64,000 bases of DNA, taken from assembly GCA_001003705.1 (NCBI GenBank), contig LCPQ01000001.1:58008-122007 (forward strand), written 5' to 3'. Each line of letters opens with the position of its first letter. Positions within the stretch are counted from its first letter, which is position 1. The DNA comes from Parcubacteria group bacterium GW2011_GWA2_48_9 (GTDB lineage Bacteria; Patescibacteriota; Patescibacteriia; UBA10025). The position numbers and the translations under genes are program-made. This document shows, in pieces, positions 14,689-29,868 of the stretch. The notes below the pieces were generated by a model. It did not search any database and was not told the origin of the DNA. It saw nothing but the letters and a program-made list of their open reading frames with translations.

Positions 14689-15848
14689 TTACTCATCCTG
14701 AAGTACCAAGTCCTGTTCCGTGCCAGTTTTAAGCATCAAATCTGATCGGGGGGTAGATGTACTCACCGTTTTTCGGAAGCCGATTCGGTCAGGCGCGTGC
14801 ACAGGGGCAAGACGATGTAAAGTGCCCCAATGCACCGTTTCTTCCCCAAAGCGGTCATTCAAGACATCCATGGCGGCATAGACCGCGTCTTTTCGCGGCT
14901 GTGCCCAAAAACATCCTTGGTGCGATAACGTCCTCAGTCGAAAGACGCCGATGGCGAACGACTGCGCAGTATACGAACCAATCAGGCGTTCCAGGATACG
15001 CCAACCAAGCCGAAATATCTCGTCACCCCCCGTAAGAGAGCGGCTGAGAGTAACGTTTTTCCCATAGTAGCCACCTTCGCGAAGACCGACCGAAACGAAA
15101 AGCCCCTGTGCTTCCAGTCCGCGTGTACGCACATCCCTGCCAGTACGTTCCGCAAGCCGCATGAGTACTGACTGATAAAACCTCCGGTCAGTCGTACGGG
15201 TACGCAAAACATGTGAGTGCCCGATGGATTTCGGCTGTTCGACTGGCGTGGCCAGACGCGCCGGGGCGAGTTCGATACCATTGACATTCGCCCAAAGTTC
15301 ATGTCCTCTGATGCCGAGCAAACGCTTCAAGGCGTGCGGCTCGCACATCATGAGTTCGTCGAGCGTCCGAATGCCCAAAAGATGGAGACGGGCGGCAGTG
15401 CGATCAGCGATGCCCCACGCTTCTATCAGGTCGCGCCCCTTGAGATACCCCAAAAGGTTGTTGCGACTCAAAACCACTATCCCTCCTTTTTCACACGTGT
15501 CAGAACCGAATTTGGCCAGCCATCGAGTCGGCGCGATGCCTATGGAGTTCGTACATCCGAATACTGCCTGATGATAGAAAAGATTTTTTCAGTCGTCGAA
15601 CGGTACTTCGACGGATCGACTTCTACTAATATGATATCTGGGTATAAAAACTTTGCCTCGTCGGCACGACAACCGGTCTTAATGCCCACCGCCTTCGCTT
15701 CCTTCGATGAAGCGAGAATACACCCGTGCGGTGTCATGGTGGCGACAACTCCCAAGGGTTTCCCGCGTAGCGTAGGATTCGCCTGCTGCTCAACGCTGGC
15801 AAAGTACGAATTCATGTCCAGATGCATAATGATGCGCTTCGCTGGCAT
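14689..15848 (-). pseudogene. dinB: DNA polymerase IV (Y-family, DinB) disrupted by an internal deletion of about 130 nt plus a frameshift
   Basis: ORF 15540..15848 encodes DinB residues about 1–100 (…HLDMNSYFASVEQ…). ORF 14689..15477 and its upstream extension encode residues about 145–360 (…GIAPTRWLAKFGSD…YLKGRDLIEAWGIADRTAARL…). The segment holding the catalytic SIDEAxLD motif is absent. Translating both frames across 15530-15590 shows the two halves abut in different frames. Confidence 0.6.
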
Positions 15849-16299: not shown

Positions 16300-17253
16300 T
16301 TATACATTTTTTACTTCCACTGGTGATGTGCTGGTAAAAGCAGTGTCAACAGTAGGCCGAGGAGGTTCGATGTATTTTCTTCCAGACCTCTGCACCATGT
16401 AAATCGATCCCACAAGAATGATGCCACCAATGACTTGAGTTGTTACCAAAGCTTGATCAAGAAAAATCCAGTTGAGCGCTACCGCTGAAAACGGAAAAAC
16501 CAGCTCAGCAATTGTTGCTACGGAAGCTTTAGTTGATTTGAGGCCGTAGTAATAAATGAGTAGGGCTCCTGTACCCGTAAAAACTGTGATGAGTAGCAGA
16601 CGAGTAATATCTGTGCCAGACAATCCTCCCAGAAGGTGGAGGGTTCGCTGTGTGACGATAAAAAACAACATAAAGAGTAATGCAACGCTCAAACGGAGTG
16701 ATGTCAAGGCTGGATATGTTAACTTACGAAGCACATACCTACCCATCACTGTTGACCCGCCCCAAAAGAAAGCAGCCAAGAGCGCATACCATACCCCTTT
16801 CATACTCGTGAGCGAAAGGTTTCCTATCCCGTCCGGGAATGAAACGAAGTATGCGCCTCCAAGCGCCAAAAGCGTCCAGATCCAAAACGATGTGGCGAGA
16901 CGTTCTTTGAGGAGAAGCGCCGCTAATACTAATGCGATTATCGGCTGAGTTTTTTGCAATAAGATCGCTACGGTTGGCGAAACATATGTAAATGCAGACG
17001 TGAAAAAATACGTCGCCAGAGCCGAACCCCCGACGGCGATAAACAGCACTGCCCACAACTCCTTCCGATTCAATGCCTCAAACTGTTTTCTACTCTTCCA
17101 AAGAATTGGAAGAAGTAAAATAGCCCCAAAAAGATGCTCATAAAAAACAATCGTCGAGCTCGAGATACCCTCCGTTAACGGCTGACGAAGTAATGAATCA
17201 GCACTCCAAAGTAGAGCCGCTATCATTATGAAAAATGCACCGTACTTCCGCAT
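16300..17253 (-). CDS. EamA/DMT-family transporter
   Basis: 317 aa with 10 TM segments and two EamA-like repeats. Confidence 0.75.
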   Translation of the reverse strand: MRKYGAFFIMIAALLWSADSLLRQPLTEGISSSTIVFYEHLFGAILLLPILWKSRKQFEALNRKELWAVLFIAVGGSALATYFFTSAFTYVSPTVAILLQKTQPIIALVLAALLLKERLATSFWIWTLLALGGAYFVSFPDGIGNLSLTSMKGVWYALLAAFFWGGSTVMGRYVLRKLTYPALTSLRLSVALLFMLFFIVTQRTLHLLGGLSGTDITRLLLITVFTGTGALLIYYYGLKSTKASVATIAELVFPFSAVALNWIFLDQALVTTQVIGGIILVGSIYMVQRSGRKYIEPPRPTVDTAFTSTSPVEVKNV

Positions 17254-17335: not shown

Positions 17336-19279
17336 TTACAATTCCTCCCACGTCTCATCCAAAGCTCTCCAAATTCCACCTGGCCCTGAAGTAAATGATG
17401 TACTGGCAAGACCTGACTCGTACGTGACCTCCACATTATTATCGAGCTGTAACAAATACCCAGTCGCCTCATTCAACTCAGCGTTATTACTTATTTCAAG
17501 CATCCCTTGGCTCGTGAAGAAAATAGCGCCGCTGACATTATTTTGGATATGTATTGCAGGGTCTGTAAGAGCAGTTATACCCTTGTTTGTAGATGCAACC
17601 ATGACATAGCTATCAGCTGCGCCGGACCCCTGAATGTCACCATTATTGTTTATAACTACTTTTCCTTGTGTTTGTTGGTATGAAGGGTCGTCAACGATAA
17701 TAACTGAACTTTGGGATCCAAAGGATGGGGACAGTTTGATATCAGCGTTGTTATCTATGGTAAGATTGCCTTTGACCCAAATAATACCATTCATTGTTAC
17801 TTGGGCGCTGTTAGTTATGAAAAGGTTTCCATCTATCTTCACGGGACCAAGAGTGGTTCCATTTGGCACTGTATATGTAGTTCCCACCCCTCCTGGCGGA
17901 GTAACGACTCCTCCTATTTCAGCATCAATTTCCCACTGCTTAATCTGTGCATTTGAAATCGGCATGTTCTCTGGAGGCGCGTCAACAGGAGGATCAACTG
18001 CGGTTGGGCAGGTTTTTACTCCGGATACCGTGTTGCTGCTCTCAGTTTCACACGTGAGATTGCCACTGATCACTGAGTTCGTCACATTCTCGGCGGTTAC
18101 ATTCCCGGCAATGGTACCTTGGTTGATTGACCCGCATTCCACATCACCAGCTACGGTCGTGCTTTCCATGATCTGACATTCGACATTGGCGGAGATATTT
18201 GAAGTTTGAATAGTATTGGCATGAACAAATCCTCCGGCTGTCGCCGGCACTCGCAAACCAGTAATGGAGGTCGGGACCCCACCCATGAAGACTTTAAAAC
18301 CGAAATCGGCGTTTGCGCTCTGCCATGGGTCGCTACCCCAGTCTTTGGAAAACATACCGATCCCGTTCCCGTAACCCGCGTTATCGTGAGCCCCCCATAT
18401 CCAATACTTACTGGCATTTTTACTACCTACGTCAAAAATTATCCAGTACGTAGATCCTTTTATGAGAGGTGGGGTGGTGTTAAAAGTAATATCTATCCAA
18501 CCATATGTAGTGGTCACCAGTGTTGCATTCAGTGTCCCGGAGGCAAGTTCTGTAGTTCCGGGTAATCCAGCATTATCTGTCACTATATGCATCGTAGCGT
18601 TCGATGGGCTGCCGACTTTTTTTATATATAAGCTGATTTTATTCATGACATTTGTTTCTCCTGCTTTGAAGCTCTGTGCAGCATCAGTTTCATTGGTTGT
18701 CCTTCCGACATCATATTCAGAGCTCTGGACTATCTGGCTTTGGTCAGGTGTAAGGGCGGTCCCCCCGGCGACAATGACACTTCCTTGTATTTCAGCGTTG
18801 TTACCGGCGGTGATACTGCCATTCGAGTAGACATTCCCTTTCACAATCGCATTATTGTCCATATTAAGCCCCCCTTCACCTACTTGAACACCGTAATAAA
18901 AGGATGCCTCACTTGTTGCGGGTTCGTCTGTTGCTGTTACCCGTATAGTTCGTTGCACATTGCCTGTGGTTCCGACGGATGTAACCTCCTTGTTGTCACC
19001 AACAACAGCTACTGAAACAGAAAAGGAACCCGCGCCCAGTTGAGTAGTTTCTCCGATGTATGGATTACCACATACGGCAGGCTTGTTAAGACACCAGAGT
19101 GCCCGATCAATTCCTGCTTCAGCAAGCTGAAAAGCAAGTGTCCGACGCGTCTCTTTGCGCAACACAAAAGAGTTATAGGCAGTGGTCGAGGTAATCGCGA
19201 GGACGATTACAATGGCAGAACTCACCATGATCAGTGCCAGTATGAGTGCCTGTCCTTTATTTGTTCCTGAGACGTGCAT
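17336..19279 (-). CDS. Large type IV pilin-like protein (prepilin-type N-terminal helix plus about 600 aa Thr/Ser/Asn/Gly-rich beta-rich domain)
   Basis: The N-terminus (…NKGQALILALIMVSSAIVIVLAITS…) resembles a class III signal peptide with a hydrophobic helix. The remainder is low-complexity and repeat-like. It lies adjacent to two pseudopilin genes. Confidence 0.5.
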   Translation of the reverse strand: MHVSGTNKGQALILALIMVSSAIVIVLAITSTTAYNSFVLRKETRRTLAFQLAEAGIDRALWCLNKPAVCGNPYIGETTQLGAGSFSVSVAVVGDNKEVTSVGTTGNVQRTIRVTATDEPATSEASFYYGVQVGEGGLNMDNNAIVKGNVYSNGSITAGNNAEIQGSVIVAGGTALTPDQSQIVQSSEYDVGRTTNETDAAQSFKAGETNVMNKISLYIKKVGSPSNATMHIVTDNAGLPGTTELASGTLNATLVTTTYGWIDITFNTTPPLIKGSTYWIIFDVGSKNASKYWIWGAHDNAGYGNGIGMFSKDWGSDPWQSANADFGFKVFMGGVPTSITGLRVPATAGGFVHANTIQTSNISANVECQIMESTTVAGDVECGSINQGTIAGNVTAENVTNSVISGNLTCETESSNTVSGVKTCPTAVDPPVDAPPENMPISNAQIKQWEIDAEIGGVVTPPGGVGTTYTVPNGTTLGPVKIDGNLFITNSAQVTMNGIIWVKGNLTIDNNADIKLSPSFGSQSSVIIVDDPSYQQTQGKVVINNNGDIQGSGAADSYVMVASTNKGITALTDPAIHIQNNVSGAIFFTSQGMLEISNNAELNEATGYLLQLDNNVEVTYESGLASTSFTSGPGGIWRALDETWEEL

Positions 19280-19847
19280 GTGTTTGTAATGTGTGAGTTA
19301 GTGTGCGCTGACCAGCTATGGTAGATATGGTAAACGTACTTGCGACATCGTAACTATTCTCCGGATCGGTATCGGTATAAGTAAACGTGAGATCTTCTAT
19401 GTGAGATCCGAGAACTTCCGTTCTGTCTGTGCGCGAACTCGTATCATCTGCATCGGTAACGCGAAGCATTTTTGTAGTATCGAGAGGATCCAAGGTGAGA
19501 ACCATGTAATCGTATGTATTCGGAATAATAGATCCGTCACCATCAATGGCAAGCGCCTCAAGAATTACTGTAGTTGAACCTGTGAGGTATGGCTGAGAAA
19601 GGATACTCTTCGATTGGACGATCCTTGATGAAGGAAGTACTGTGTCACTAATGCGCTTTGCTATTGTCGACGCTTCAAATAGTAACTCCTGCTTTACGCG
19701 AGAATCACGAGCTGTCCGTGAAAAATTAATAAAGAGCGGACCAAGTAGTGTGACTAAAGTGACAAGCACCCCGATAGTAATGAGCATATCAACAAGAGTG
19801 AATGCTCCTCTAGGTTTCGTTGTGTTCCTTAAGAATCGTACAGGCAT
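19257..19847 (-). CDS. Prepilin-type (pseudopilin / minor pilin) protein
   Basis: N-terminus …KPRGAFTLVDMLITIGVLVTLVTLL… matches the G-F-T-L-(I/V)-E-like prepilin cleavage and methylation motif. Confidence 0.6.
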   Translation of the reverse strand: MPVRFLRNTTKPRGAFTLVDMLITIGVLVTLVTLLGPLFINFSRTARDSRVKQELLFEASTIAKRISDTVLPSSRIVQSKSILSQPYLTGSTTVILEALAIDGDGSIIPNTYDYMVLTLDPLDTTKMLRVTDADDTSSRTDRTEVLGSHIEDLTFTYTDTDPENSYDVASTFTISTIAGQRTLTHTLQTHARLRNK

Positions 19848-19860
19848 TAAGGTAAAACAC

Positions 19861-20760
19861 TCAGTCTATTAATATAGATGGTGTTAGAGAGCGACTGAAG
19901 CGTTGCCACCCGGAAGCAACCTGATCTACTGTTTCTGTAACTGCTGGAAAACTCCAGAAGTTACTTGTTATATTTGATACAAAAACATCATCAAAGTCGG
20001 CGGTAACACCGTCGAGTGCCGCGAGCGCATAGAGCCCTTGATCAAATGTGTTGTCATTGATGGGTGCACCGGTTTCATAGCTCCCATTAATGGAGATAGT
20101 AAACGCTCCGCCAGTCGCCGTTACCCGCATCGAATACCACACATCTTTCGAAAATGCTTTCGCCTTTGTCCAGAGTTGAGTCTGCACTCCTTCTACCACA
20201 CGAACCATTGTTATCTGAGCCGCAGATACACTAATAAGGTAGTAATTCTGCGTGTCATGATAGCGTATGTACATCCCGGTGCGCCAGCTAGCTTGGGATT
20301 CGTTTCGTGCACGGAAATATAACTCCATGGTAGCATCTCCAATGCGCCCGACAGGGACAATCTGCCTACTTGGATTTGCACTGCCAGTAGCACTGCCAGC
20401 TGCATAGACATAGGGTGAAGACCTTGGGTTCACAGGGTCTTGAATTGACCAATTTCCGCTGTTGTAGCCAACTTCAATGAAAGATGTCGCGGTTCGATTT
20501 CCTAAATCAGCAAAAGACGCGCTACGCAAAGCCTCCACCTCCTCGATCAGTAATTGGCGCGCAAGTGTTAGGTATTGGCTATGTCGCTGTAGCCTCTGGG
20601 TGTTACTGAATCCTGCAACAACAATCACGAGAATAGTCACTACACCAATTGCTATGACTGTCTCAATGAGGCCTACTCCGCTTCGCCCTGCAAAAGATTG
20701 GCGTGCACTCGCCGTACGTATATCCTCCATGTGTGGGTGTATTATACCATATTTATACAA
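19861..20760 (-). CDS. Prepilin-type (pseudopilin) protein
   Basis: N-terminus …GRSGVGLIETVIAIGVVTILVIV… shows the prepilin motif with Glu at +5. Confidence 0.55.
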   Translation of the reverse strand: MYKYGIIHPHMEDIRTASARQSFAGRSGVGLIETVIAIGVVTILVIVVAGFSNTQRLQRHSQYLTLARQLLIEEVEALRSASFADLGNRTATSFIEVGYNSGNWSIQDPVNPRSSPYVYAAGSATGSANPSRQIVPVGRIGDATMELYFRARNESQASWRTGMYIRYHDTQNYYLISVSAAQITMVRVVEGVQTQLWTKAKAFSKDVWYSMRVTATGGAFTISINGSYETGAPINDNTFDQGLYALAALDGVTADFDDVFVSNITSNFWSFPAVTETVDQVASGWQRFSRSLTPSILID

Positions 20761-20796
20761 AAAATCAACCCACTTGTGAAACTGTCAGTTTTTTAA

Positions 20797-21375
20797 TTAT
20801 TGAGTTCTTACCGAAAATCGAATATCTTCGACTCGGTGTAAATTTCTTTTTGCGTCGTCAAACTTCTGTCGCAAATAGCCAGTAAGATTGCAACGAAGAA
20901 GTTCTTCGACAACATGTTCAACAACAGCATGTACGGTGTCTACACGTGCCTTATCGCCTTGTGTCGCAGCGGCAACTGATAATCTCACTAATTCACCAGT
21001 AACATCGGCGAGTGCGCCGATAGTTTCATCATACTCGGGCTCAAATGGTGTGGTGATCTCAATAGTCCCTTTGGTAACAAATGTATAATACATCAGTGCT
21101 TCAAGGTACTCTTCCATAGCTGCACGAATTGAACCTTCATATCGTAGCTTAGACTCTCGCTTCCACATGGAACGCAGTTTTTTCAAATCTCGTTCCGCCT
21201 CACGAATTTCCCTACGCGCTTCTTTGACATTGTCACGATGCAGCGAAAAAATTGCACGTTTCGAGTGTTGAAGCGCGCCTTGGGAGTACGCAAACGATTT
21301 TGAACGTGACTGACTGAAGGCTTGGGCAGCTGATAGTAGCGATCGAAAAAAGCGTGATTCAGACATTGTCTTCAT
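20797..21375 (-). CDS. Translin-like helical protein (tentative)
   Basis: 192-aa all-helical protein. The C-terminal half (…EEYLEALMYYTF…YDETIGALADVTGELVRLSV…) resembles the translin (E)Y…GLxDLTGELxR signature. Recognised by eye only. Confidence 0.45.
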   Translation of the reverse strand: MKTMSESRFFRSLLSAAQAFSQSRSKSFAYSQGALQHSKRAIFSLHRDNVKEARREIREAERDLKKLRSMWKRESKLRYEGSIRAAMEEYLEALMYYTFVTKGTIEITTPFEPEYDETIGALADVTGELVRLSVAAATQGDKARVDTVHAVVEHVVEELLRCNLTGYLRQKFDDAKRNLHRVEDIRFSVRTQ

Positions 21376-21622
21376 TCTCTATCCGAGCATTTTCAGCAAT
21401 TTCAGGAAAACTGGATTGAAGGTTTTCGCGCAGTACAACCGAATCTTCATCCTCCGTCATGCGCCCATCTTCTATAAACTCACTAATAACCTCGTCAATG
21501 AGTGACTCGAACTCTTCGTACGTTAATGAAGGGTTCTCCATCTTCTTCTGAATATTTTTGATTATCTCGGTGGTTAGTTCTGGTGCTTCCATGGTCTTAT
21601 GCGTTATCTCCGTTTTGTTCAA
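21359..21622 (-). CDS. Small acidic hypothetical protein (87 aa)
   Basis: ORF overlapping the neighbouring genes by a few codons. Very Glu/Asp-rich. No family recognised. Confidence 0.3.
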   Translation of the reverse strand: MNKTEITHKTMEAPELTTEIIKNIQKKMENPSLTYEEFESLIDEVISEFIEDGRMTEDEDSVVLRENLQSSFPEIAENARIENEDNV

Positions 21623-21815
21623 ACTTTTTCTTGATATTTTCGATCTTATTTTCCACTTCTTTAAGCTTTGTCTTTAGTTTTTGAGCAATCGCTAAACCTT
21701 CTTCAAATTTTTTCAACCCCTCATCAATTTCAATATCGCCGCGTTCAAATTCAGTGGCAATTTTTTCCAGGTCATCAAAGAGCTTCCCGAAACTTGTTGC
21801 TAGCTGTTTTGGCAT
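21597..21815 (-). CDS. xseB: Exodeoxyribonuclease VII small subunit
   Basis: 72 aa (…SFGKLFDDLEKIATEFERGDIEIDEGLKKFEEGLAIAQKLKTKL…) matches XseB. It lies directly downstream of xseA. Confidence 0.85.
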   Translation of the reverse strand: MPKQLATSFGKLFDDLEKIATEFERGDIEIDEGLKKFEEGLAIAQKLKTKLKEVENKIENIKKKFEQNGDNA

Positions 21816-21817
21816 AA

Positions 21818-22987
21818 CTAGGTTACTTGTGAAATTACTTCACCCTTAGCAAGGCGTGTAGACAGTATATCACCCTTTACAGTATCCTGAGAACCCTTCA
21901 GGACTTTACCACCTTTTCGGGTAACACTGTACCCCCTGTCGAGAGTGGACTGCGGAGACAGTGTCCTCACAAGACGCTCGAGATGCTGAACTTTCTCATA
22001 CTTTTTACGAATAGCATAATCGAATTCCCGGAACGAAGTAATGAATCGCTGGTACACATTTTGTGCTTTTTCCGTTTGCGAGCGCATCATAGTTTCGAGA
22101 AGTCCTAATGAACGCTGTGCCCGATCCTGGTATCTTTCGATCGTTTCTCGAAGGCCATCCTCTAGCGAAGCTGCGAGTGTTTCGATTTGAAAAAGGATTT
22201 CCCTTCTGTCAGGGACCACCCGTTCTGCGGCATTCGATGGTGTGGACGCACGGACATCAGCGACCAAATCAGCGATTGTCCAGTCGCGTTCGTGCCCAAC
22301 ACCACACACAACGGGAACTCGCGAACCAAATATGGCCCGAGCAAGATCCTCGGAGTTAAACGACTGGAGATCCTCCAGAGACCCACCTCCACGCGTTAAT
22401 ATTATTGCGTCCACTTCTTTTACGCTACTGAGATATCTCAGCGCCTTTACAATCGATGAGATAGAGCCAGGGCCTTGAACCCCTACGGGCGCGAACTGAA
22501 TAGTCACTCCGCTCCAACGATTGTTCATGACACGAACTACATCTGTGTATGCTGCTGCGTCAGGCGACGTAATAAGTCCTACTATATGAGGAAAACGGGG
22601 CAACGCCCGTTTGCGCTCCTCCGCGAATAGTCCTTCTTTTTCGAGCTTGTCTTTCAACATGAGCAGCGCCTTATTCAGGGCGCCTTTTCCGACCAATTCA
22701 ATTTCTCGTACGCGCACATGGAATCCGCCACTTTTTTTAAAGAGTGATGCGTTTCCATGAACTCGAATTTCCATGCCGTCCTCGAGGATAGTATGGAGAT
22801 CATATTTCATCATGAAACAGACTACCCTTGAAGATTCGTCTTTTAGTTCGAAAAAAATGAGTCGTTCTTGTGCGAGGCGGTACCCTGTCACTTCCCCTTG
22901 GATAGACACGTTGCCTAATCCATCCTCCAGGTACTCCTTGATCGCGGAGACAAACTCCGACACAGAATAGACCTTGTTTGCACTCAT
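21818..22987 (-). CDS. xseA: Exodeoxyribonuclease VII large subunit
   Basis: 389 aa with an N-terminal OB fold (…VSIQGEVTGYRLAQERLIFFELKDESSRVVCFMMKY…) and a catalytic core (…RGGGSLEDL…). Confidence 0.9.
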   Translation of the reverse strand: MSANKVYSVSEFVSAIKEYLEDGLGNVSIQGEVTGYRLAQERLIFFELKDESSRVVCFMMKYDLHTILEDGMEIRVHGNASLFKKSGGFHVRVREIELVGKGALNKALLMLKDKLEKEGLFAEERKRALPRFPHIVGLITSPDAAAYTDVVRVMNNRWSGVTIQFAPVGVQGPGSISSIVKALRYLSSVKEVDAIILTRGGGSLEDLQSFNSEDLARAIFGSRVPVVCGVGHERDWTIADLVADVRASTPSNAAERVVPDRREILFQIETLAASLEDGLRETIERYQDRAQRSLGLLETMMRSQTEKAQNVYQRFITSFREFDYAIRKKYEKVQHLERLVRTLSPQSTLDRGYSVTRKGGKVLKGSQDTVKGDILSTRLAKGEVISQVT

Positions 22988-23106
22988 ACCTATAGGGTAC
23001 CAAAAAGTGCGCTCCGTGTCATTGACAGTAACACTACTACATGGTACAAACGATCCAATCGCTCTGTATTCAACTTAAAAGGAGGAGGTGCGTGGAAACT
23101 ATCAGA

Positions 23107-23571
23107 ATGACCGTGTGCTTCCCTCTTACGGGAACGCACATTTGGCTTGGTAAAAAGAAACGCAGTTTCGGCAGCGGACTCTGGAACGGATTTGGCGGAC
23201 GCCAAAAACTCGGTGAAACGATCCGGGAAACTGCGAAACGTGAGTCGCACGAAGAGGCAGGTATTATGCTTATCCGCATGAAACGGGTAGCTGTAATTCG
23301 CTTTGTCTTTCGGCAAACACGGATTGCGTGCGAGGTCCACTATCACCTCTCTACTCAGTGGAGAGGTGTACCCGTCGAGACGGAAGAAATGTTTCCAGCC
23401 ATATTCGAAATCGACGACATCCCTTACGGGACTATGTGGCCAGCGGACAAATTGTATCTGCCTGTCGTGCTATCCGGAGGACTCTGGGTCGGGACATGCA
23501 TCTACAGCGACCCCGTAAAACGGCGACTCATTCGCCTTGATCTTTCAGAAACCAAGAGGCTTCCATACTGA
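23107..23571 (+). CDS. Nudix hydrolase (MutT-like)
   Basis: Nudix box GGRQKLGETIRETAKRESHEEAGI. The start was moved to an internal Met (MTVCFPL…). Confidence 0.8.
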   Translation: MTVCFPLTGTHIWLGKKKRSFGSGLWNGFGGRQKLGETIRETAKRESHEEAGIMLIRMKRVAVIRFVFRQTRIACEVHYHLSTQWRGVPVETEEMFPAIFEIDDIPYGTMWPADKLYLPVVLSGGLWVGTCIYSDPVKRRLIRLDLSETKRLPY

Positions 23572-28519: not shown

Positions 28520-29302
28520 TCAGGTGTTACCTGGTCGTTTTAGTGTGCTGCGTTCACGCAATACCGCAATAGAAAATTTGACTGTTGCCGTGAGGATTCG
28601 CGGAAATCTCCATGGCTGCTTGAGAAGTCGAAAAAACCACTCAAGACCAAGGGCGCGCACCCAACTAGGTGCCCTACGTATCGAGCCGGATACGTAGTCA
28701 AAAACACCACCGACACCCACGGCAATTTTTACCGTTGGTAGTCGAGAAAGTGCAGCAGCAATCCATTTCTCCTGTTTCGGATGGCCAAAGGCAACAAAAA
28801 TAACATCCGGCTTGACTTCGTTGATATAGCTTAATAGAAATGCTTGCTCATCAGCATCGATAACTATACGCGTGTCTTCGAGCAGTATATGCGGGCCGCT
28901 TGCAGCTCCAGCCACACGCAATAAGGGAAACTGCACTTTTAGCCGCTGTGCAGCCCTGTATGCTACGTGCTGATCTTTTCCACCAAGAAAGAAAACAGAC
29001 TTGCTATCCCGTTCGGCAATAAACAATAAATCGTGAAAAAGATCATACCCAGTGTAGCGCGAAGGGCGAGTCCCACTGATGAGACGTGTGGCGAGAACAA
29101 GCCCTGCGCCATCCACCGTAGTGAGTGATGAATTATTGATGAGCGCAAGAAATTCGGAGTCCTTTTGCGCCCACATAACCATCTCGGGGTTAAGGGTGAC
29201 AATATGGTGCTGGCCGCCTTTCAATAACCATGATTCAAGAAGATGGCGCACATCCTGCTTTGAAAAAGTATCAACTCGAGTGGAAAGAATATGCAGGCTC
29301 AT
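28520..29302 (-). CDS. WecB/TagA/CpsF-family glycosyltransferase (N-acetylmannosaminyltransferase-like)
   Basis: 260 aa. …IVTLNPEMVM…, …VFFLGG… and …GVGGVFDY…EWFFRL… are characteristic of this family. Confidence 0.8.
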   Translation of the reverse strand: MSLHILSTRVDTFSKQDVRHLLESWLLKGGQHHIVTLNPEMVMWAQKDSEFLALINNSSLTTVDGAGLVLATRLISGTRPSRYTGYDLFHDLLFIAERDSKSVFFLGGKDQHVAYRAAQRLKVQFPLLRVAGAASGPHILLEDTRIVIDADEQAFLLSYINEVKPDVIFVAFGHPKQEKWIAAALSRLPTVKIAVGVGGVFDYVSGSIRRAPSWVRALGLEWFFRLLKQPWRFPRILTATVKFSIAVLRERSTLKRPGNT

Positions 29303-29868
29303 ATGAATATTTGCTTTACAAGCGTGTACACGGGGCCGTCAGTTGTAAGAGTGCTTTTCATAATGTCGATTGTATGTACCGGGCATGTTGCAGAAAAGTG
29401 TATCAATGAATACTGCACGGCATTCAGAACACCCGCGCGCGTACGCCCAATAGTCACATGGGGCCTGAATGGCTGCACATCAAGCGGTACCAATCCGAAT
29501 GCTTCTAGTCGTGTCGATAGTGCCGCAGTAAGTGAGTCGAGTAATACATTTTCCATGACAGAAAGTGCAACTACACGAGCTCTCTTTGCACTTGGCAAAA
29601 ACTCAAATTCCTGAATTTCGAGCTTAAAGGGACGAACGTCAGCTGTACATTTCGAAACAATATCTGATAGAGCTATAAGTTCGCTTTTTTCCACTTCACC
29701 GATAAATCGAAGGGTTACGTGGGCTTGTCTGGGATCCACCCAATGGACACCGGCCATCTTCACCTTTAAAACTCCGATCAGATCGCGGAGCTGCCTACGT
29801 ACAACTTCGGTAAGTGGGATGGAAATAAATACCCTTTTCACGTTAAAATAGTATACCATGAGCACCAA
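29299..29868 (-). CDS. thpR: RNA 2',3'-cyclic phosphodiesterase (2H phosphoesterase, LigT/ThpR)
   Basis: Two H-x-T-x motifs (…HVTLRF… and …HVTIGR…) in a 189-aa protein. Confidence 0.8.
   Translation of the reverse strand: MVLMVYYFNVKRVFISIPLTEVVRRQLRDLIGVLKVKMAGVHWVDPRQAHVTLRFIGEVEKSELIALSDIVSKCTADVRPFKLEIQEFEFLPSAKRARVVALSVMENVLLDSLTAALSTRLEAFGLVPLDVQPFRPHVTIGRTRAGVLNAVQYSLIHFSATCPVHTIDIMKSTLTTDGPVYTLVKQIFI

What the first reader, a model, noticed from the sequence alone, without database searches (positions are those of the whole stretch)
20797..22987. Translin-like helical protein and an acidic mini-protein directly upstream of xseB-xseA (ExoVII)
The 192-aa protein carries a translin-like signature (…EEYLEA…YDETIGALADVTGELVRLS…), and translin family proteins are ssDNA/RNA-binding nucleases. 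It is followed by an 87-aa Glu/Asp-rich ORF, then xseB and xseA, all on one strand with overlaps of about 25–35 nt between the small genes. A translin-like protein operonic with the ssDNA exonuclease VII would suggest a joint nucleic-acid processing module. Translin homologues are uncommon in bacteria.
Basis: partly seen in the sequence, partly recalled or inferred. Interest (0 to 1): 0.5.

Follow-up and report, generated by a model that had tools for sequence, protein, structure and literature searches.

The report
TRAX-like nuclease in ExoVII operon
A candidate-phyla-radiation bacterium carries a gene for a TRAX/C3PO-type nuclease, with its active site intact, as the last gene of its exonuclease VII operon, preceded by a tiny orphan acidic protein; this hints at shared single-stranded DNA clean-up, but the linkage holds in only a few lineages.

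Summary
The four ORFs are real and sit at the stated coordinates. All are on the minus strand, so the transcription order is xseA > xseB > acidic mini-protein > translin-like gene. The translin-like gene is therefore downstream of xseAB, not upstream.

**Translin-like protein (192 aa).** It is a secure translin-superfamily member of the TRAX type.
- Pfam PF01997 scores 66.8 bits against a cutoff of 25.9.
- The AlphaFold model (pLDDT 94.8) superposes on archaeal and human C3PO subunits at TM 0.86-0.88.
- The four catalytic residues (E89, E92, D124, E128) are invariant in 25 relatives.

**Acidic ORF.** It is a conserved gene of 77 aa starting at ATG 21592, not 87 aa. Its net charge is -16. It has no known family or fold and only 6 relatives among 1.84 billion representative proteins. 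Three of those relatives sit between xseB and the TRAX gene.

**Distribution and linkage.** The TRAX family is mainly found in Patescibacteria (252 species genomes matched). Linkage to xseAB appears in only 4 of 80 species loci, in two gene orders. The commonest neighbour is a UvrD-type helicase (21 of 80).

**Most likely function.** It is probably a metal-dependent barrel nuclease that acts on single-stranded DNA or on the oligonucleotides ExoVII and UvrD release. This step is inferred, not shown.

**Verdict.** A new member of a known kind in an unreported operon context, of moderate interest.

The parts
21818..22987 (-). xseA, exonuclease VII large subunit (389 aa); first gene of the string
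   Evidence: TIGR00237 xseA equivalog 379.2 bits (cutoff 180), model positions 1-388 of 389. Pfam Exonuc_VII_L 3e-78 plus an N-terminal OB fold, tRNA_anti_2. The sequence contains RGGGS and GHERD...ADLVAD motifs. Mapping to the E. coli catalytic residues was not done here.
21597..21815 (-). xseB, exonuclease VII small subunit (72 aa); starts 2 nt after the xseA stop
   Evidence: TIGR01280 47.1 bits (cutoff 35); Pfam PF02609 2.4e-11. Spacing read.
21359..21592 (-). Net charge -16, pI 4.05. Predicted small helical bundle.
   Evidence: - Conserved at 42-47% identity in L001, L002, L085 and L081, always between xseB and the TRAX gene.
- Only 7 hits, including itself, in 1.84 billion representatives.
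- No Pfam, PDB-sequence, PADLOC or PHROGs match.
- Not XseB-like: hhalign probability 0.4%.
- AF2 pLDDT 77.5 with four helices. Foldseek best E=2.6.
- Charge.
20797..21375 (-). TRAX/C3PO-type translin-superfamily nuclease (192 aa; alternative start ATG 21366). Last gene of the string; overlaps the acidic ORF by 17 or 8 nt.
   Evidence: - PF01997 66.8 bits, cutoff 25.9.
- PDB sequence hits: AfTRAX 4.5e-7 and NEQ131. A family profile scores about 1e-16 against TRAX chains and 1e-9 to 1e-11 against translin chains.
- AF2 pLDDT 94.8. Foldseek TM 0.86-0.88 to 5jrc, 3zc1 and 3pja_J/K/L.
- E89, E92, D124 and E128 are invariant in 25 sequences. They align with NeC3PO Glu82, Glu85, Asp117 and Glu121.
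20741..20768 (-). Promoter-like site (TTGATT-16 nt-TATAAT with TG) just after the TRAX stop codon. It marks the likely start of a separate transcript for the downstream prepilin-like genes, and so the end of the xseA-to-TRAX unit.
   Evidence: Consensus scan, 10 of 12 matches. This is a pattern match only, not proof of function.

Best explanation
**The locus.** In this Parcubacteria/Patescibacteria (CPR) genome, four genes on the minus strand form one tightly packed, probably co-transcribed unit: xseA, xseB, a 77-aa acidic mini-protein, and a 192-aa TRAX-like gene.

**The last gene (shown).** It encodes a bacterial homologue of the catalytic subunit of C3PO (TRAX), closest to the single-gene archaeal C3POs of Archaeoglobus and Nanoarchaeum. 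It has the family fold and all four metal-binding catalytic residues.

**Its activity (inferred).** By analogy with the archaeal enzymes, it should assemble into a closed homo-oligomeric barrel. It should cut short single-stranded nucleic acids inside the barrel in a Mg2+/Mn2+-dependent way.

**Its role (inferred from gene neighbourhoods).** Here it works on DNA rather than RNA. ExoVII releases oligonucleotides rather than mononucleotides, and UvrD-type helicases peel off single strands. The barrel nuclease would chop these products further. This would complete repair-associated ssDNA clearance and feed nucleotide salvage in an organism of a group described as unable to make its own nucleotides.

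**The acidic mini-protein (inferred).** Its gene overlaps the TRAX start, so it is probably translationally coupled. It is most likely a lineage-specific partner of the basic TRAX protein (pI 9.3), acting as a regulator, gatekeeper or adaptor.
For: **Family and active site (shown)**
- PF01997 is above its cutoff.
- The family profile hits TRAX chains at about 1e-16 and translin chains more weakly.
- The model has pLDDT 94.8. TM is 0.86-0.88 to NeC3PO, AfC3PO and human C3PO chains J/K/L. labels 3pja_J as translin-associated protein X.
- The motifs EEYxEA and D-x-TGEL are invariant in 25 relatives. Their spacing is the same as the NeC3PO tetrad Glu82/Glu85/Asp117/Glu121.
- NeC3PO cleaves ssDNA, ssRNA, dsDNA and dsRNA in vitro (PMC5100593).

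**Operon (shown from sequence)**
- Gaps are 2 nt and 4 nt, followed by an 8-17-nt overlap.
- No terminator-like site lies at any gene junction: the two found fall inside xseA and are no more than the shuffles give. The only strong minus-strand promoter-like site lies after the TRAX stop.

**Linkage**
- The same four-gene cassette occurs in L001, L002 and L085, and partly in L081.
- A different order, TRAX > xseA > xseB, occurs in L008 (5-nt gap) and L024.
- In L024 the string continues with a PD-(D/E)XK nuclease and a PF13482 exonuclease-like protein.
- A UvrD/PcrA-type helicase lies directly downstream on the same strand in 21 of 80 loci, with gaps as small as 3-55 nt.
- NUDIX genes are next to TRAX in several clades, and one is divergent from xseA in the window.

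**Other support**
- ExoVII releases oligonucleotide products (PMC2566859).
- The mini-protein has net charge -16 and the TRAX protein has pI 9.3.
- A listed abstract describes CPR bacteria as unable to synthesise nucleotides.
Against: - The link to xseAB is present in only 4 of 80 species-level loci.
- Neighbourhoods elsewhere are heterogeneous: MltG, glycosyltransferases, MurD, an O-methyltransferase, RlmH, and a divergent YchF. In small CPR genomes unrelated genes are often packed together.
- Counts are not phylogenetically independent. L008 shares a nearby EamA gene with the window lineage, so its arrangement may be a local shuffle rather than an independent origin.
- The neighbour-joining tree is crude and has no support values.
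- Characterised C3PO enzymes act mainly on RNA in vivo, and archaeal TRAX genes are linked to SepRS, a tRNA enzyme (PMC5424206).
- No oligomer, activity or interaction was tested.
- Two distant relatives of the acidic protein are not shown to lie next to xseB or TRAX. One sits in front of secD. The other lies on contigs too short to show its neighbours, with no xseB in the 323 nt upstream.
Confidence: 0.5

Rival explanations
1. The TRAX-like protein is a housekeeping RNA nuclease. It might remove tRNA or rRNA leader fragments, or degrade short RNA, as C3PO does in eukaryotes. Its place behind xseAB would then be gene packing in a streamlined genome with no functional coupling.
For: - Known in vivo substrates of C3PO are RNAs, and NeC3PO has strong ssRNA activity (PMC5100593; abstracts).
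- Archaeal TRAX genes are ancestrally linked to SepRS (PMC5424206).
- 76 of 80 loci lack xseAB.
- RNA-related genes (QueA, RlmH, YchF) recur within a few kb in several clades.
Against: - QueA, RlmH and YchF are usually not the direct same-strand neighbours. YchF is divergent, and QueA is 2-5 kb away.
- The direct same-strand neighbours that recur most are DNA enzymes: UvrD in 21 loci, xseAB in 4 loci with two gene orders, and a nuclease island in L024.
- Archaeal C3PO also cuts ssDNA and dsDNA.
Confidence: 0.3
2. The acidic mini-protein and the TRAX nuclease form a toxin-antitoxin or nuclease-immunity pair. A small acidic neutraliser would be encoded just upstream of, and overlapping, a potentially toxic nuclease that happens to have inserted behind xseAB.
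For: - The architecture fits: a 77-aa acidic protein (net -16) directly upstream of, and overlapping, a basic nuclease gene (pI 9.3).
- The pair co-occurs in five genomes.
Against: - The TRAX gene occurs without any detectable acidic partner in 78 of 80 species loci, so it is not an obligate pair.
- The TRAX gene behaves as a vertically inherited gene, with clade-specific conserved synteny.
- There are no PADLOC or PHROGs matches.
- No mobile-element genes were seen among the annotated flanking genes of the window.
- In C3PO the active sites face a closed cavity, which already limits toxicity (PMC5100593).
Confidence: 0.07
3. The 192-aa protein is a non-catalytic, translin-like nucleic-acid-binding protein. 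It would act as a chaperone or scaffold for ssDNA or RNA, not as a nuclease.
For: - Eukaryotic translin lacks the catalytic residues and only binds nucleic acid (PMC5100593).
- The Pfam family covers both types.
Against: - All four catalytic acidic residues are present and invariant across 25 relatives, with the spacing seen in NeC3PO.
- The family profile scores TRAX chains better than translin chains.
Confidence: 0.03

Closest known systems
Archaeal single-subunit C3PO (Archaeoglobus fulgidus AfTRAX, PDB 3ZC0/3ZC1; Nanoarchaeum equitans NeC3PO/NEQ131, PDB 5JR9/5JRC/5JRE)
   Same: - Similar length (about 185-200 aa) and the same all-helical fold (TM 0.86-0.90, rmsd about 2 A).
- The same catalytic tetrad with the same spacing.
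- Only one translin-family gene was found in the 64-kb window, which would fit the archaeal homo-oligomer type; the rest of the genome was not searched.
   Different: - Bacterial (CPR) host.
- Sequence identity is only 18-21%.
- The invariant C-terminal motif LRQKFDDAKRNL is specific to this clade.
- The genomic context is DNA-repair genes (xseAB, UvrD), whereas archaeal genes are linked to SepRS.
- Oligomeric state and activity were not tested.
Eukaryotic TRAX, the catalytic subunit of the translin-TRAX C3PO hetero-octamer (human 3PJA/3QB5, Drosophila 3AXJ/3RIU)
   Same: - Same family and fold. The ADLTGEL motif is nearly identical to that of human TRAX.
- A metal-dependent endonuclease tetrad is present.
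- Eukaryotic TRAX also has reported DNA-repair links (PMC6294740, PMC9246224).
   Different: - No translin partner gene is present in the window.
- The protein is about 100 aa shorter and lacks the eukaryotic insertions.
- There is no RNAi pathway in bacteria.
Bacterial translin-superfamily proteins described in Chloroflexi (Gupta, Kale & Kumar 2012, J Mol Evol 75:155, as cited in PMC5100593 and PMC5424206)
   Same: A single translin-superfamily gene in a bacterium, similar to the archaeal proteins.
   Different: - A different phylum. Most loci found here carry Patescibacteria-type labels.
- No paper found in the library links translin with CPR bacteria or with exonuclease VII.
- The Gupta paper itself was not read.
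Canonical xseA/xseB exonuclease VII
   Same: Full-length equivalog matches for both subunits, which are adjacent and co-oriented.
   Different: - Two extra genes are appended in the same string.
- XseA is 389 aa, against about 456 aa in E. coli (that figure is from my own knowledge). A shorter helical region would fit the quantised length variation described in PMC10835039, but this was not measured here.
Small acidic DNA-mimic or nuclease-inhibitor proteins and acidic antitoxins (general class; recalled from general knowledge, not tested)
   Same: The mini-protein is small and helical, 29% Asp+Glu, pI about 4, and is encoded immediately before a nucleic-acid enzyme.
   Different: - No sequence or fold similarity to any solved protein.
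- No binding data exist.
- Acidity alone does not define a DNA mimic.

Membership tests
Translin superfamily (Pfam PF01997) | Match to the family HMM above the curated gathering score | tested here: met
   66.8 bits against a cutoff of 25.9, E=3.5e-18, covering residues 36-189. All 25 database relatives carry a precomputed PF01997 hit.
Translin superfamily (Pfam PF01997) | All-alpha fold of about seven helices, superposable on solved translin/TRAX subunits | tested here: met
   AF2 pLDDT 94.8 with seven helices. Foldseek probability 1.00, TM 0.86-0.90 and rmsd 1.8-2.0 A to 5jrc, 5jr9 and 3zc0.
TRAX / C3PO catalytic subunit (as opposed to non-catalytic translin) | Four acidic metal-binding residues, E-x2-E ... 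D-x3-E (NeC3PO Glu82, Glu85, Asp117, Glu121) | tested here: met
   E89, E92, D124 and E128 are invariant in 25 sequences. They align column for column with the NeC3PO, AfTRAX, human and fly TRAX motifs. The residue list comes from PMC5100593.
TRAX / C3PO catalytic subunit | Closer to TRAX than to translin in sequence | tested here: met
   The family profile against PDB gives 1.4e-16 to 1.3e-14 for TRAX chains and 2.6e-11 to 9.3e-9 for translin chains.
TRAX / C3PO catalytic subunit | Assembly into a closed octameric (or hexameric) barrel with the active sites facing inward | not testable with these tools
   Only monomer prediction is available.
TRAX / C3PO catalytic subunit | Mg2+/Mn2+-dependent endonuclease activity on single-stranded RNA or DNA | not testable with these tools
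   This needs biochemistry.
Eukaryote-type C3PO heteromer | A separate translin partner subunit | tested here: not met
   tblastn of the protein against the whole 64-kb window finds only itself. The rest of the genome was not searched. The gene fits the archaeal single-gene type.
Exonuclease VII (XseA + XseB) | Both subunits match the equivalog models above cutoff and are adjacent | tested here: met
   xseA TIGR00237 scores 379.2 (cutoff 180). xseB TIGR01280 scores 47.1 (cutoff 35). The genes are 2 nt apart.
Exonuclease VII accessory subunit (is the acidic ORF a second XseB?) | Profile similarity to XseB | tested here: not met
   hhalign of a 3-sequence acidic-ORF profile against a 5-sequence XseB profile gives probability 0.4% with 13 aligned columns. 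There is no PF02609 hit at E<=10.
Toxin-antitoxin / nuclease-immunity pair | Obligate co-occurrence of the two genes; membership in known defence or TA families | tested here: not met
   The acidic ORF was detected in 2 of 80 TRAX loci and has only 6 relatives in total. There are no PADLOC hits.
DNA-mimic protein | A surface charge pattern that imitates the DNA backbone, and binding to a DNA-binding protein | not testable with these tools
   Only the bulk properties are known: net charge -16 and pI 4.05. The model has moderate confidence, pLDDT 77.5, and has no structural neighbours.

The most novel reading that the evidence does not exclude
CPR bacteria use a C3PO-like barrel nuclease as a dedicated finishing enzyme for single-stranded DNA. 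It would digest the oligonucleotides and displaced strands produced by ExoVII and UvrD-type helicases, serving repair and nucleotide recycling. In one lineage the barrel would be gated or docked to ExoVII by a new acidic mini-protein. That would mean the ancestral job of the TRAX nuclease was DNA clean-up, and its RNA-silencing role in eukaryotes came later.
Probability: 0.2. Interest if true: 0.65.

Novelty: new member of a known kind. Interest (0 to 1): 0.4.

Why it matters
- TRAX/C3PO is studied almost entirely as a eukaryotic RNA-silencing and tRNA-processing nuclease. The role of its prokaryotic relatives is unknown.
- A clade of bacterial TRAX genes with an intact active site gives a concrete, testable hypothesis for that role. 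These genes repeatedly sit in the same gene string as ssDNA-processing enzymes: ExoVII, UvrD-type helicase, and PD-(D/E)XK and exonuclease-like proteins.
- Eukaryotic TRAX also has poorly understood DNA-repair links, so the hypothesis connects to an open question there.
- The locus adds two unreported genes to the ExoVII operon. ExoVII's cellular partners are still poorly defined.
- The practical weight is limited. The linkage is confined to a few lineages, and nothing has been shown biochemically.

Tried and rejected
1. **Acidic ORF as a diverged second XseB.** By eye its T-Y-E-E-F-E-S-L-I-D-E-V motif resembles the XseB N-terminus. This is rejected: hhalign probability is 0.4% and there is no Pfam hit.
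2. **Known family or fold for the acidic ORF.** Pfam, a PDB profile search, Foldseek against PDB, PADLOC and PHROGs all gave nothing.
3. **The 87-aa TTG start and the resulting overlap with xseB.** Rejected in favour of ATG 21592, based on homologue N-termini.
5. **A UvrD-type helicase, PF13482 protein or YchF inside the window.** None was found by tblastn.
6. **A second translin paralogue in the window.** None.
7. **Defence-system or phage origin for the pair.** No support.
8. **Literature linking translin with Patescibacteria/CPR or with exonuclease VII.** None found.
9. **The NCBIfam name.** The best hits (PRK14562 models) are named 'haloacid dehalogenase superfamily protein'. They score far below their cutoffs (71.9 against 228). 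The name does not fit the all-helical translin fold, so I did not use it.
Full report
**1. What is in the sequence**

Between 20797 and 22987 there are four ORFs, all on the minus strand:

| Gene | Coordinates (minus strand) | Length |
|---|---|---|
| First ORF (xseA) | 22987..21818 | 389 aa |
| Second ORF (xseB) | 21815..21597 | 72 aa |
| Acidic ORF | ends at 21359 | 77 aa (see below) |
| Translin-like ORF | 21375..20797 | 192 aa |

- The first two are exonuclease VII. xseA matches TIGR00237 at 379 bits (cutoff 180) over the full model. xseB matches TIGR01280 at 47.1 bits (cutoff 35).
- Transcription therefore runs xseA > xseB > acidic ORF > translin-like gene. Biologically the two extra genes are appended downstream of xseAB.
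- Spacing, read:
  - The xseA stop and xseB start are 2 nt apart.
  - The xseB stop and the ATG at 21592 are 4 nt apart.
  - The acidic ORF overlaps the translin-like start by 17 nt (ATG 21375) or 8 nt (ATG 21366).
- The 87-aa version of the acidic ORF starts at TTG 21622 and would overlap xseB. It is probably wrong. Four relatives start at the Met matching 21592 (one has four extra N-terminal residues), and the L001 copy has no possible upstream start.
- No terminator-like site lies at any gene junction; the two found fall inside xseA and are no more than the shuffles give. The only strong minus-strand promoter-like site (TTGATT-16-TATAAT, 20768-20741) lies just after the last stop codon, in front of three prepilin-like genes.
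- A NUDIX gene (23041-23571, plus strand) is divergent from xseA.

**2. The host**

- The acidic ORF is 99% identical to a protein from a 'Parcubacteria group bacterium' MAG.
- Most loci holding relatives of the 192-aa protein are labelled Patescibacteria/CPR.
- Several MAG labels look unreliable, for example 'uncultured Gammaproteobacteria' and Acutalibacteraceae. Some of those loci (for example L066, L008, L024) carry the same neighbouring genes as the CPR-labelled ones.

**3. The 192-aa protein**

It is a translin-superfamily protein of the TRAX type.

*Sequence*
- Pfam PF01997 scores 66.8 bits (cutoff 25.9, E=3.5e-18).
- The best solved relatives are AfTRAX (3zc1, E=4.5e-7) and Nanoarchaeum NEQ131.
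- A 25-sequence family profile scores TRAX chains at 1e-16 to 1e-14 and translin chains at 1e-11 to 1e-9.

*Structure*
- AlphaFold gives a confident seven-helix model, pLDDT 94.8 and pTM 0.89.
- Foldseek places it on NeC3PO, AfC3PO and human C3PO chains J/K/L with TM 0.86-0.90 and rmsd about 2 A.

*Active site*
- NeC3PO has four catalytic residues, Glu82, Glu85, Asp117 and Glu121, which bind two metal ions (PMC5100593).
- In the alignment these columns correspond to E89, E92, D124 and E128 of the window protein. The spacing is identical, and all four are invariant in the 25 relatives.
- The motif around the last two residues (ADVTGEL, family consensus ADLTGEL) is almost the same as in human TRAX.
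- The invariant C-terminal stretch LRQKFDDAKRNL aligns with the NeC3PO helix that carries the substrate-stacking Phe160 and Arg164.

*Conclusion*
- The non-catalytic 'translin-only' reading can be set aside.
- No second paralogue is present in the window, as in the archaeal single-gene C3POs.
- Barrel assembly and nuclease activity are inferred from homology, not shown.

**4. The acidic mini-protein**

- It is a real gene. It is conserved at 42-47% identity in L001, L002, L085 and L081, always between xseB and the TRAX gene and overlapping the latter.
- It is 29% Asp+Glu, with net charge -16 and pI 4.05. The TRAX protein has pI 9.3.
- An exhaustive search of 1.84 billion representative proteins found seven hits including itself.
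  - Two distant hits are not shown to lie next to xseB or TRAX. P0033 sits in front of secD. P0032 lies on contigs too short to show its neighbours, with no xseB in the 323 nt upstream.
  - The seventh hit (P0034, 587 aa, E=7e-4) was not examined further.
- It matches no Pfam, PDB-sequence, PADLOC or PHROGs family.
- It is not a diverged XseB: hhalign probability is 0.4%.
- Its predicted four-helix model (pLDDT 77.5) has no structural neighbour; the best E-value is 2.6.
- Its function is open. Translational coupling with a basic nuclease makes a physical partner (regulator, gatekeeper or adaptor) the most economical guess.

**5. Is the link to ExoVII conserved?**

A scan of 185,579 species-representative genomes found 252 with a relative. 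That is a lower bound, because it depends on two clade-specific patterns. 80 loci were retrieved.

*xseAB linkage*
- xseAB lies next to the TRAX gene in 4 of the 80 loci.
- L001 and L002 have the window's order, including the acidic ORF.
- L008 and L024 have a different order, TRAX > xseA > xseB. The gap is 5 nt in L008.
- Two further metagenomic contigs, L085 and L081, carry the window's cassette.
- In L024 the string continues with a PD-(D/E)XK nuclease (PF12705) and a PF13482/PolB-exo-like protein.

*Other neighbours*
- The most frequent direct neighbour overall is a UvrD/PcrA-type helicase. It lies immediately downstream on the same strand in 21 of 80 loci, and 11 loci have a PF13482 protein about 3 kb downstream.
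- NUDIX genes adjoin the TRAX gene in three tree positions.
- Other clades show MltG, glycosyltransferases, MurD, an O-methyltransferase, RlmH, a divergent YchF, DUF192 and a metallophosphoesterase.

*Independence of the events*
- A crude neighbour-joining tree places the xseAB-linked sequences at three positions and the UvrD-linked ones at two. It has no support values.
- L008 shares a downstream EamA gene with the window lineage. At least some of these arrangements are therefore rearrangements of one ancestral neighbourhood.

*Reading*
- Linkage to xseAB is lineage-restricted, not a family trait.
- The direct same-strand partners are dominated by ssDNA-handling enzymes, more than I would expect by chance.
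- A rough estimate: a given gene has about a 0.2-0.4% chance of adjoining a specific gene in a genome of about 1000 genes. This figure is my inference, not a computed statistic.

**6. How it most likely works**

*Shown*
- An intact TRAX-type active site.
- A compact four-gene string.

*From the literature*
- ExoVII attacks ssDNA ends and releases oligonucleotides rather than mononucleotides (PMC2566859).
- Archaeal C3PO is a closed barrel that cleaves short ssRNA and ssDNA inside its cavity with Mg2+ or Mn2+ (PMC5100593).
- A listed abstract describes CPR bacteria as unable to synthesise nucleotides.

*Inferred*
- The barrel nuclease takes the oligonucleotides or displaced strands made by ExoVII (or by UvrD in other lineages) and cuts them further. 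This completes repair-associated ssDNA removal and feeds salvage.
- The acidic mini-protein modulates or docks the nuclease in this lineage.

*Confidence*

| Claim | Probability |
|---|---|
| Family and active-site assignment | about 0.9 |
| A DNA-side role coupled to ExoVII | about 0.45 |
| Acidic protein is a direct TRAX partner | about 0.3 |

**7. Rivals**

1. **Housekeeping RNA nuclease with incidental gene packing (0.3).** It is supported by the known RNA substrates of C3PO, the archaeal TRAX-SepRS linkage (PMC5424206), and the 76 of 80 loci without xseAB.
2. **Toxin-antitoxin-like pair (0.07).** It is disfavoured because the TRAX gene nearly always occurs without the acidic ORF and shows clade-wise vertical synteny.
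3. **Non-catalytic binder (0.03).** It is disfavoured by the invariant tetrad.

**8. Comparison with what is known, and novelty**

- The protein passes every sequence and structure test for the translin superfamily and for the TRAX subtype. Barrel assembly and activity could not be tested.
- Automated annotation already calls such CPR proteins 'predicted translin family RNA/ssDNA-binding protein', so the family assignment is not new.
- The literature I could search describes bacterial members only in Chloroflexi. It contains nothing on translin in CPR bacteria or next to ExoVII.
- I therefore rate it a new member of a known kind, in an unreported operon context, accompanied by an orphan mini-protein.
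- Eukaryotic TRAX has reported DNA-repair roles (PMC6294740, PMC9246224). This makes a DNA-side role in bacteria plausible and mildly interesting for the evolutionary history of the family.

**9. Verdict**

- The mechanism is a reasonable but untested inference.
- Interest is 0.4.

Noticed in passing
window 14689-15848 (minus strand): A DinB/Pol IV-like gene appears split. A 102-aa N-terminal piece (15848..15540, MPAKRIIMHLDMNSYFASVEQ...) is followed by a separate 262-aa ORF (15477..14689) carrying PF11799 IMS_C. This could be a frameshift, a pseudogene or an assembly error. The syntenic locus L085 has one intact 433-aa IMS gene.
   Followed up: partly
window 17336-20760 (minus strand): Three prepilin-like genes lie directly downstream of the TRAX gene. 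Each has an N-terminal hydrophobic segment that looks pilin-like by eye, and one has a weak, below-threshold LamG-like match. They have their own promoter-like site at 20768-20741. L001 has the same arrangement, with a sub-threshold N_methyl motif hit, and the L002 ORF at the same position starts with a similar N-terminal segment. This may be a type IV pilus or DNA-uptake apparatus sitting next to the ssDNA nucleases.
   Followed up: partly
window 23041-23571 (plus strand): A NUDIX hydrolase gene is divergent from xseA. NUDIX genes also sit within about 1 kb of the TRAX gene in L003, L005, L007, L063, L067 and L070 (directly after it in four of them), so the co-location recurs.
   Followed up: partly
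L024 5995-10149: A nuclease island on one strand: TRAX > xseA > xseB > PD-(D/E)XK nuclease (PF12705, Cas4-like) > PF13482/PolB-exo-like protein.
   Followed up: partly
L013, L014, L019, L021, L031, L034, L045, L047, L053, L064 and others: A conserved arrangement in Komeilibacteria-type loci: YchF (divergent), then TRAX > UvrD/PcrA-type helicase > small ORF > PF13482 RNase_H_2-like protein. It may be a helicase-nuclease repair module that includes the TRAX gene.
   Followed up: partly
L008, L011, L015, L017, L022, L024, L066 and others (record titles): Many MAGs holding this CPR-type gene are labelled 'uncultured Gammaproteobacteria', Acutalibacteraceae, Vicinamibacterales or Elusimicrobiota. 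In several of them (for example L066, L008, L024) the neighbouring genes match those of CPR-labelled loci. The labels are probably placeholder or mis-binned taxonomy.
   Followed up: no
window 20797-21375 (NCBIfam hits): The NCBIfam models that best match this translin-fold protein (PRK14562.1-x) are named 'haloacid dehalogenase superfamily protein'. This looks like a legacy misnomer that could spread into annotations.
   Followed up: no
window 16300-17253 and 28520-29868; L085: The window is syntenic with L085 over more than 10 kb: LigT, WecG ... xseA, xseB, acidic ORF, TRAX ... EamA, DinB, Trp/Tyr permease. The prepilin genes are absent from L085 at that position, which suggests an insertion or deletion of the pilin block.
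   Followed up: no
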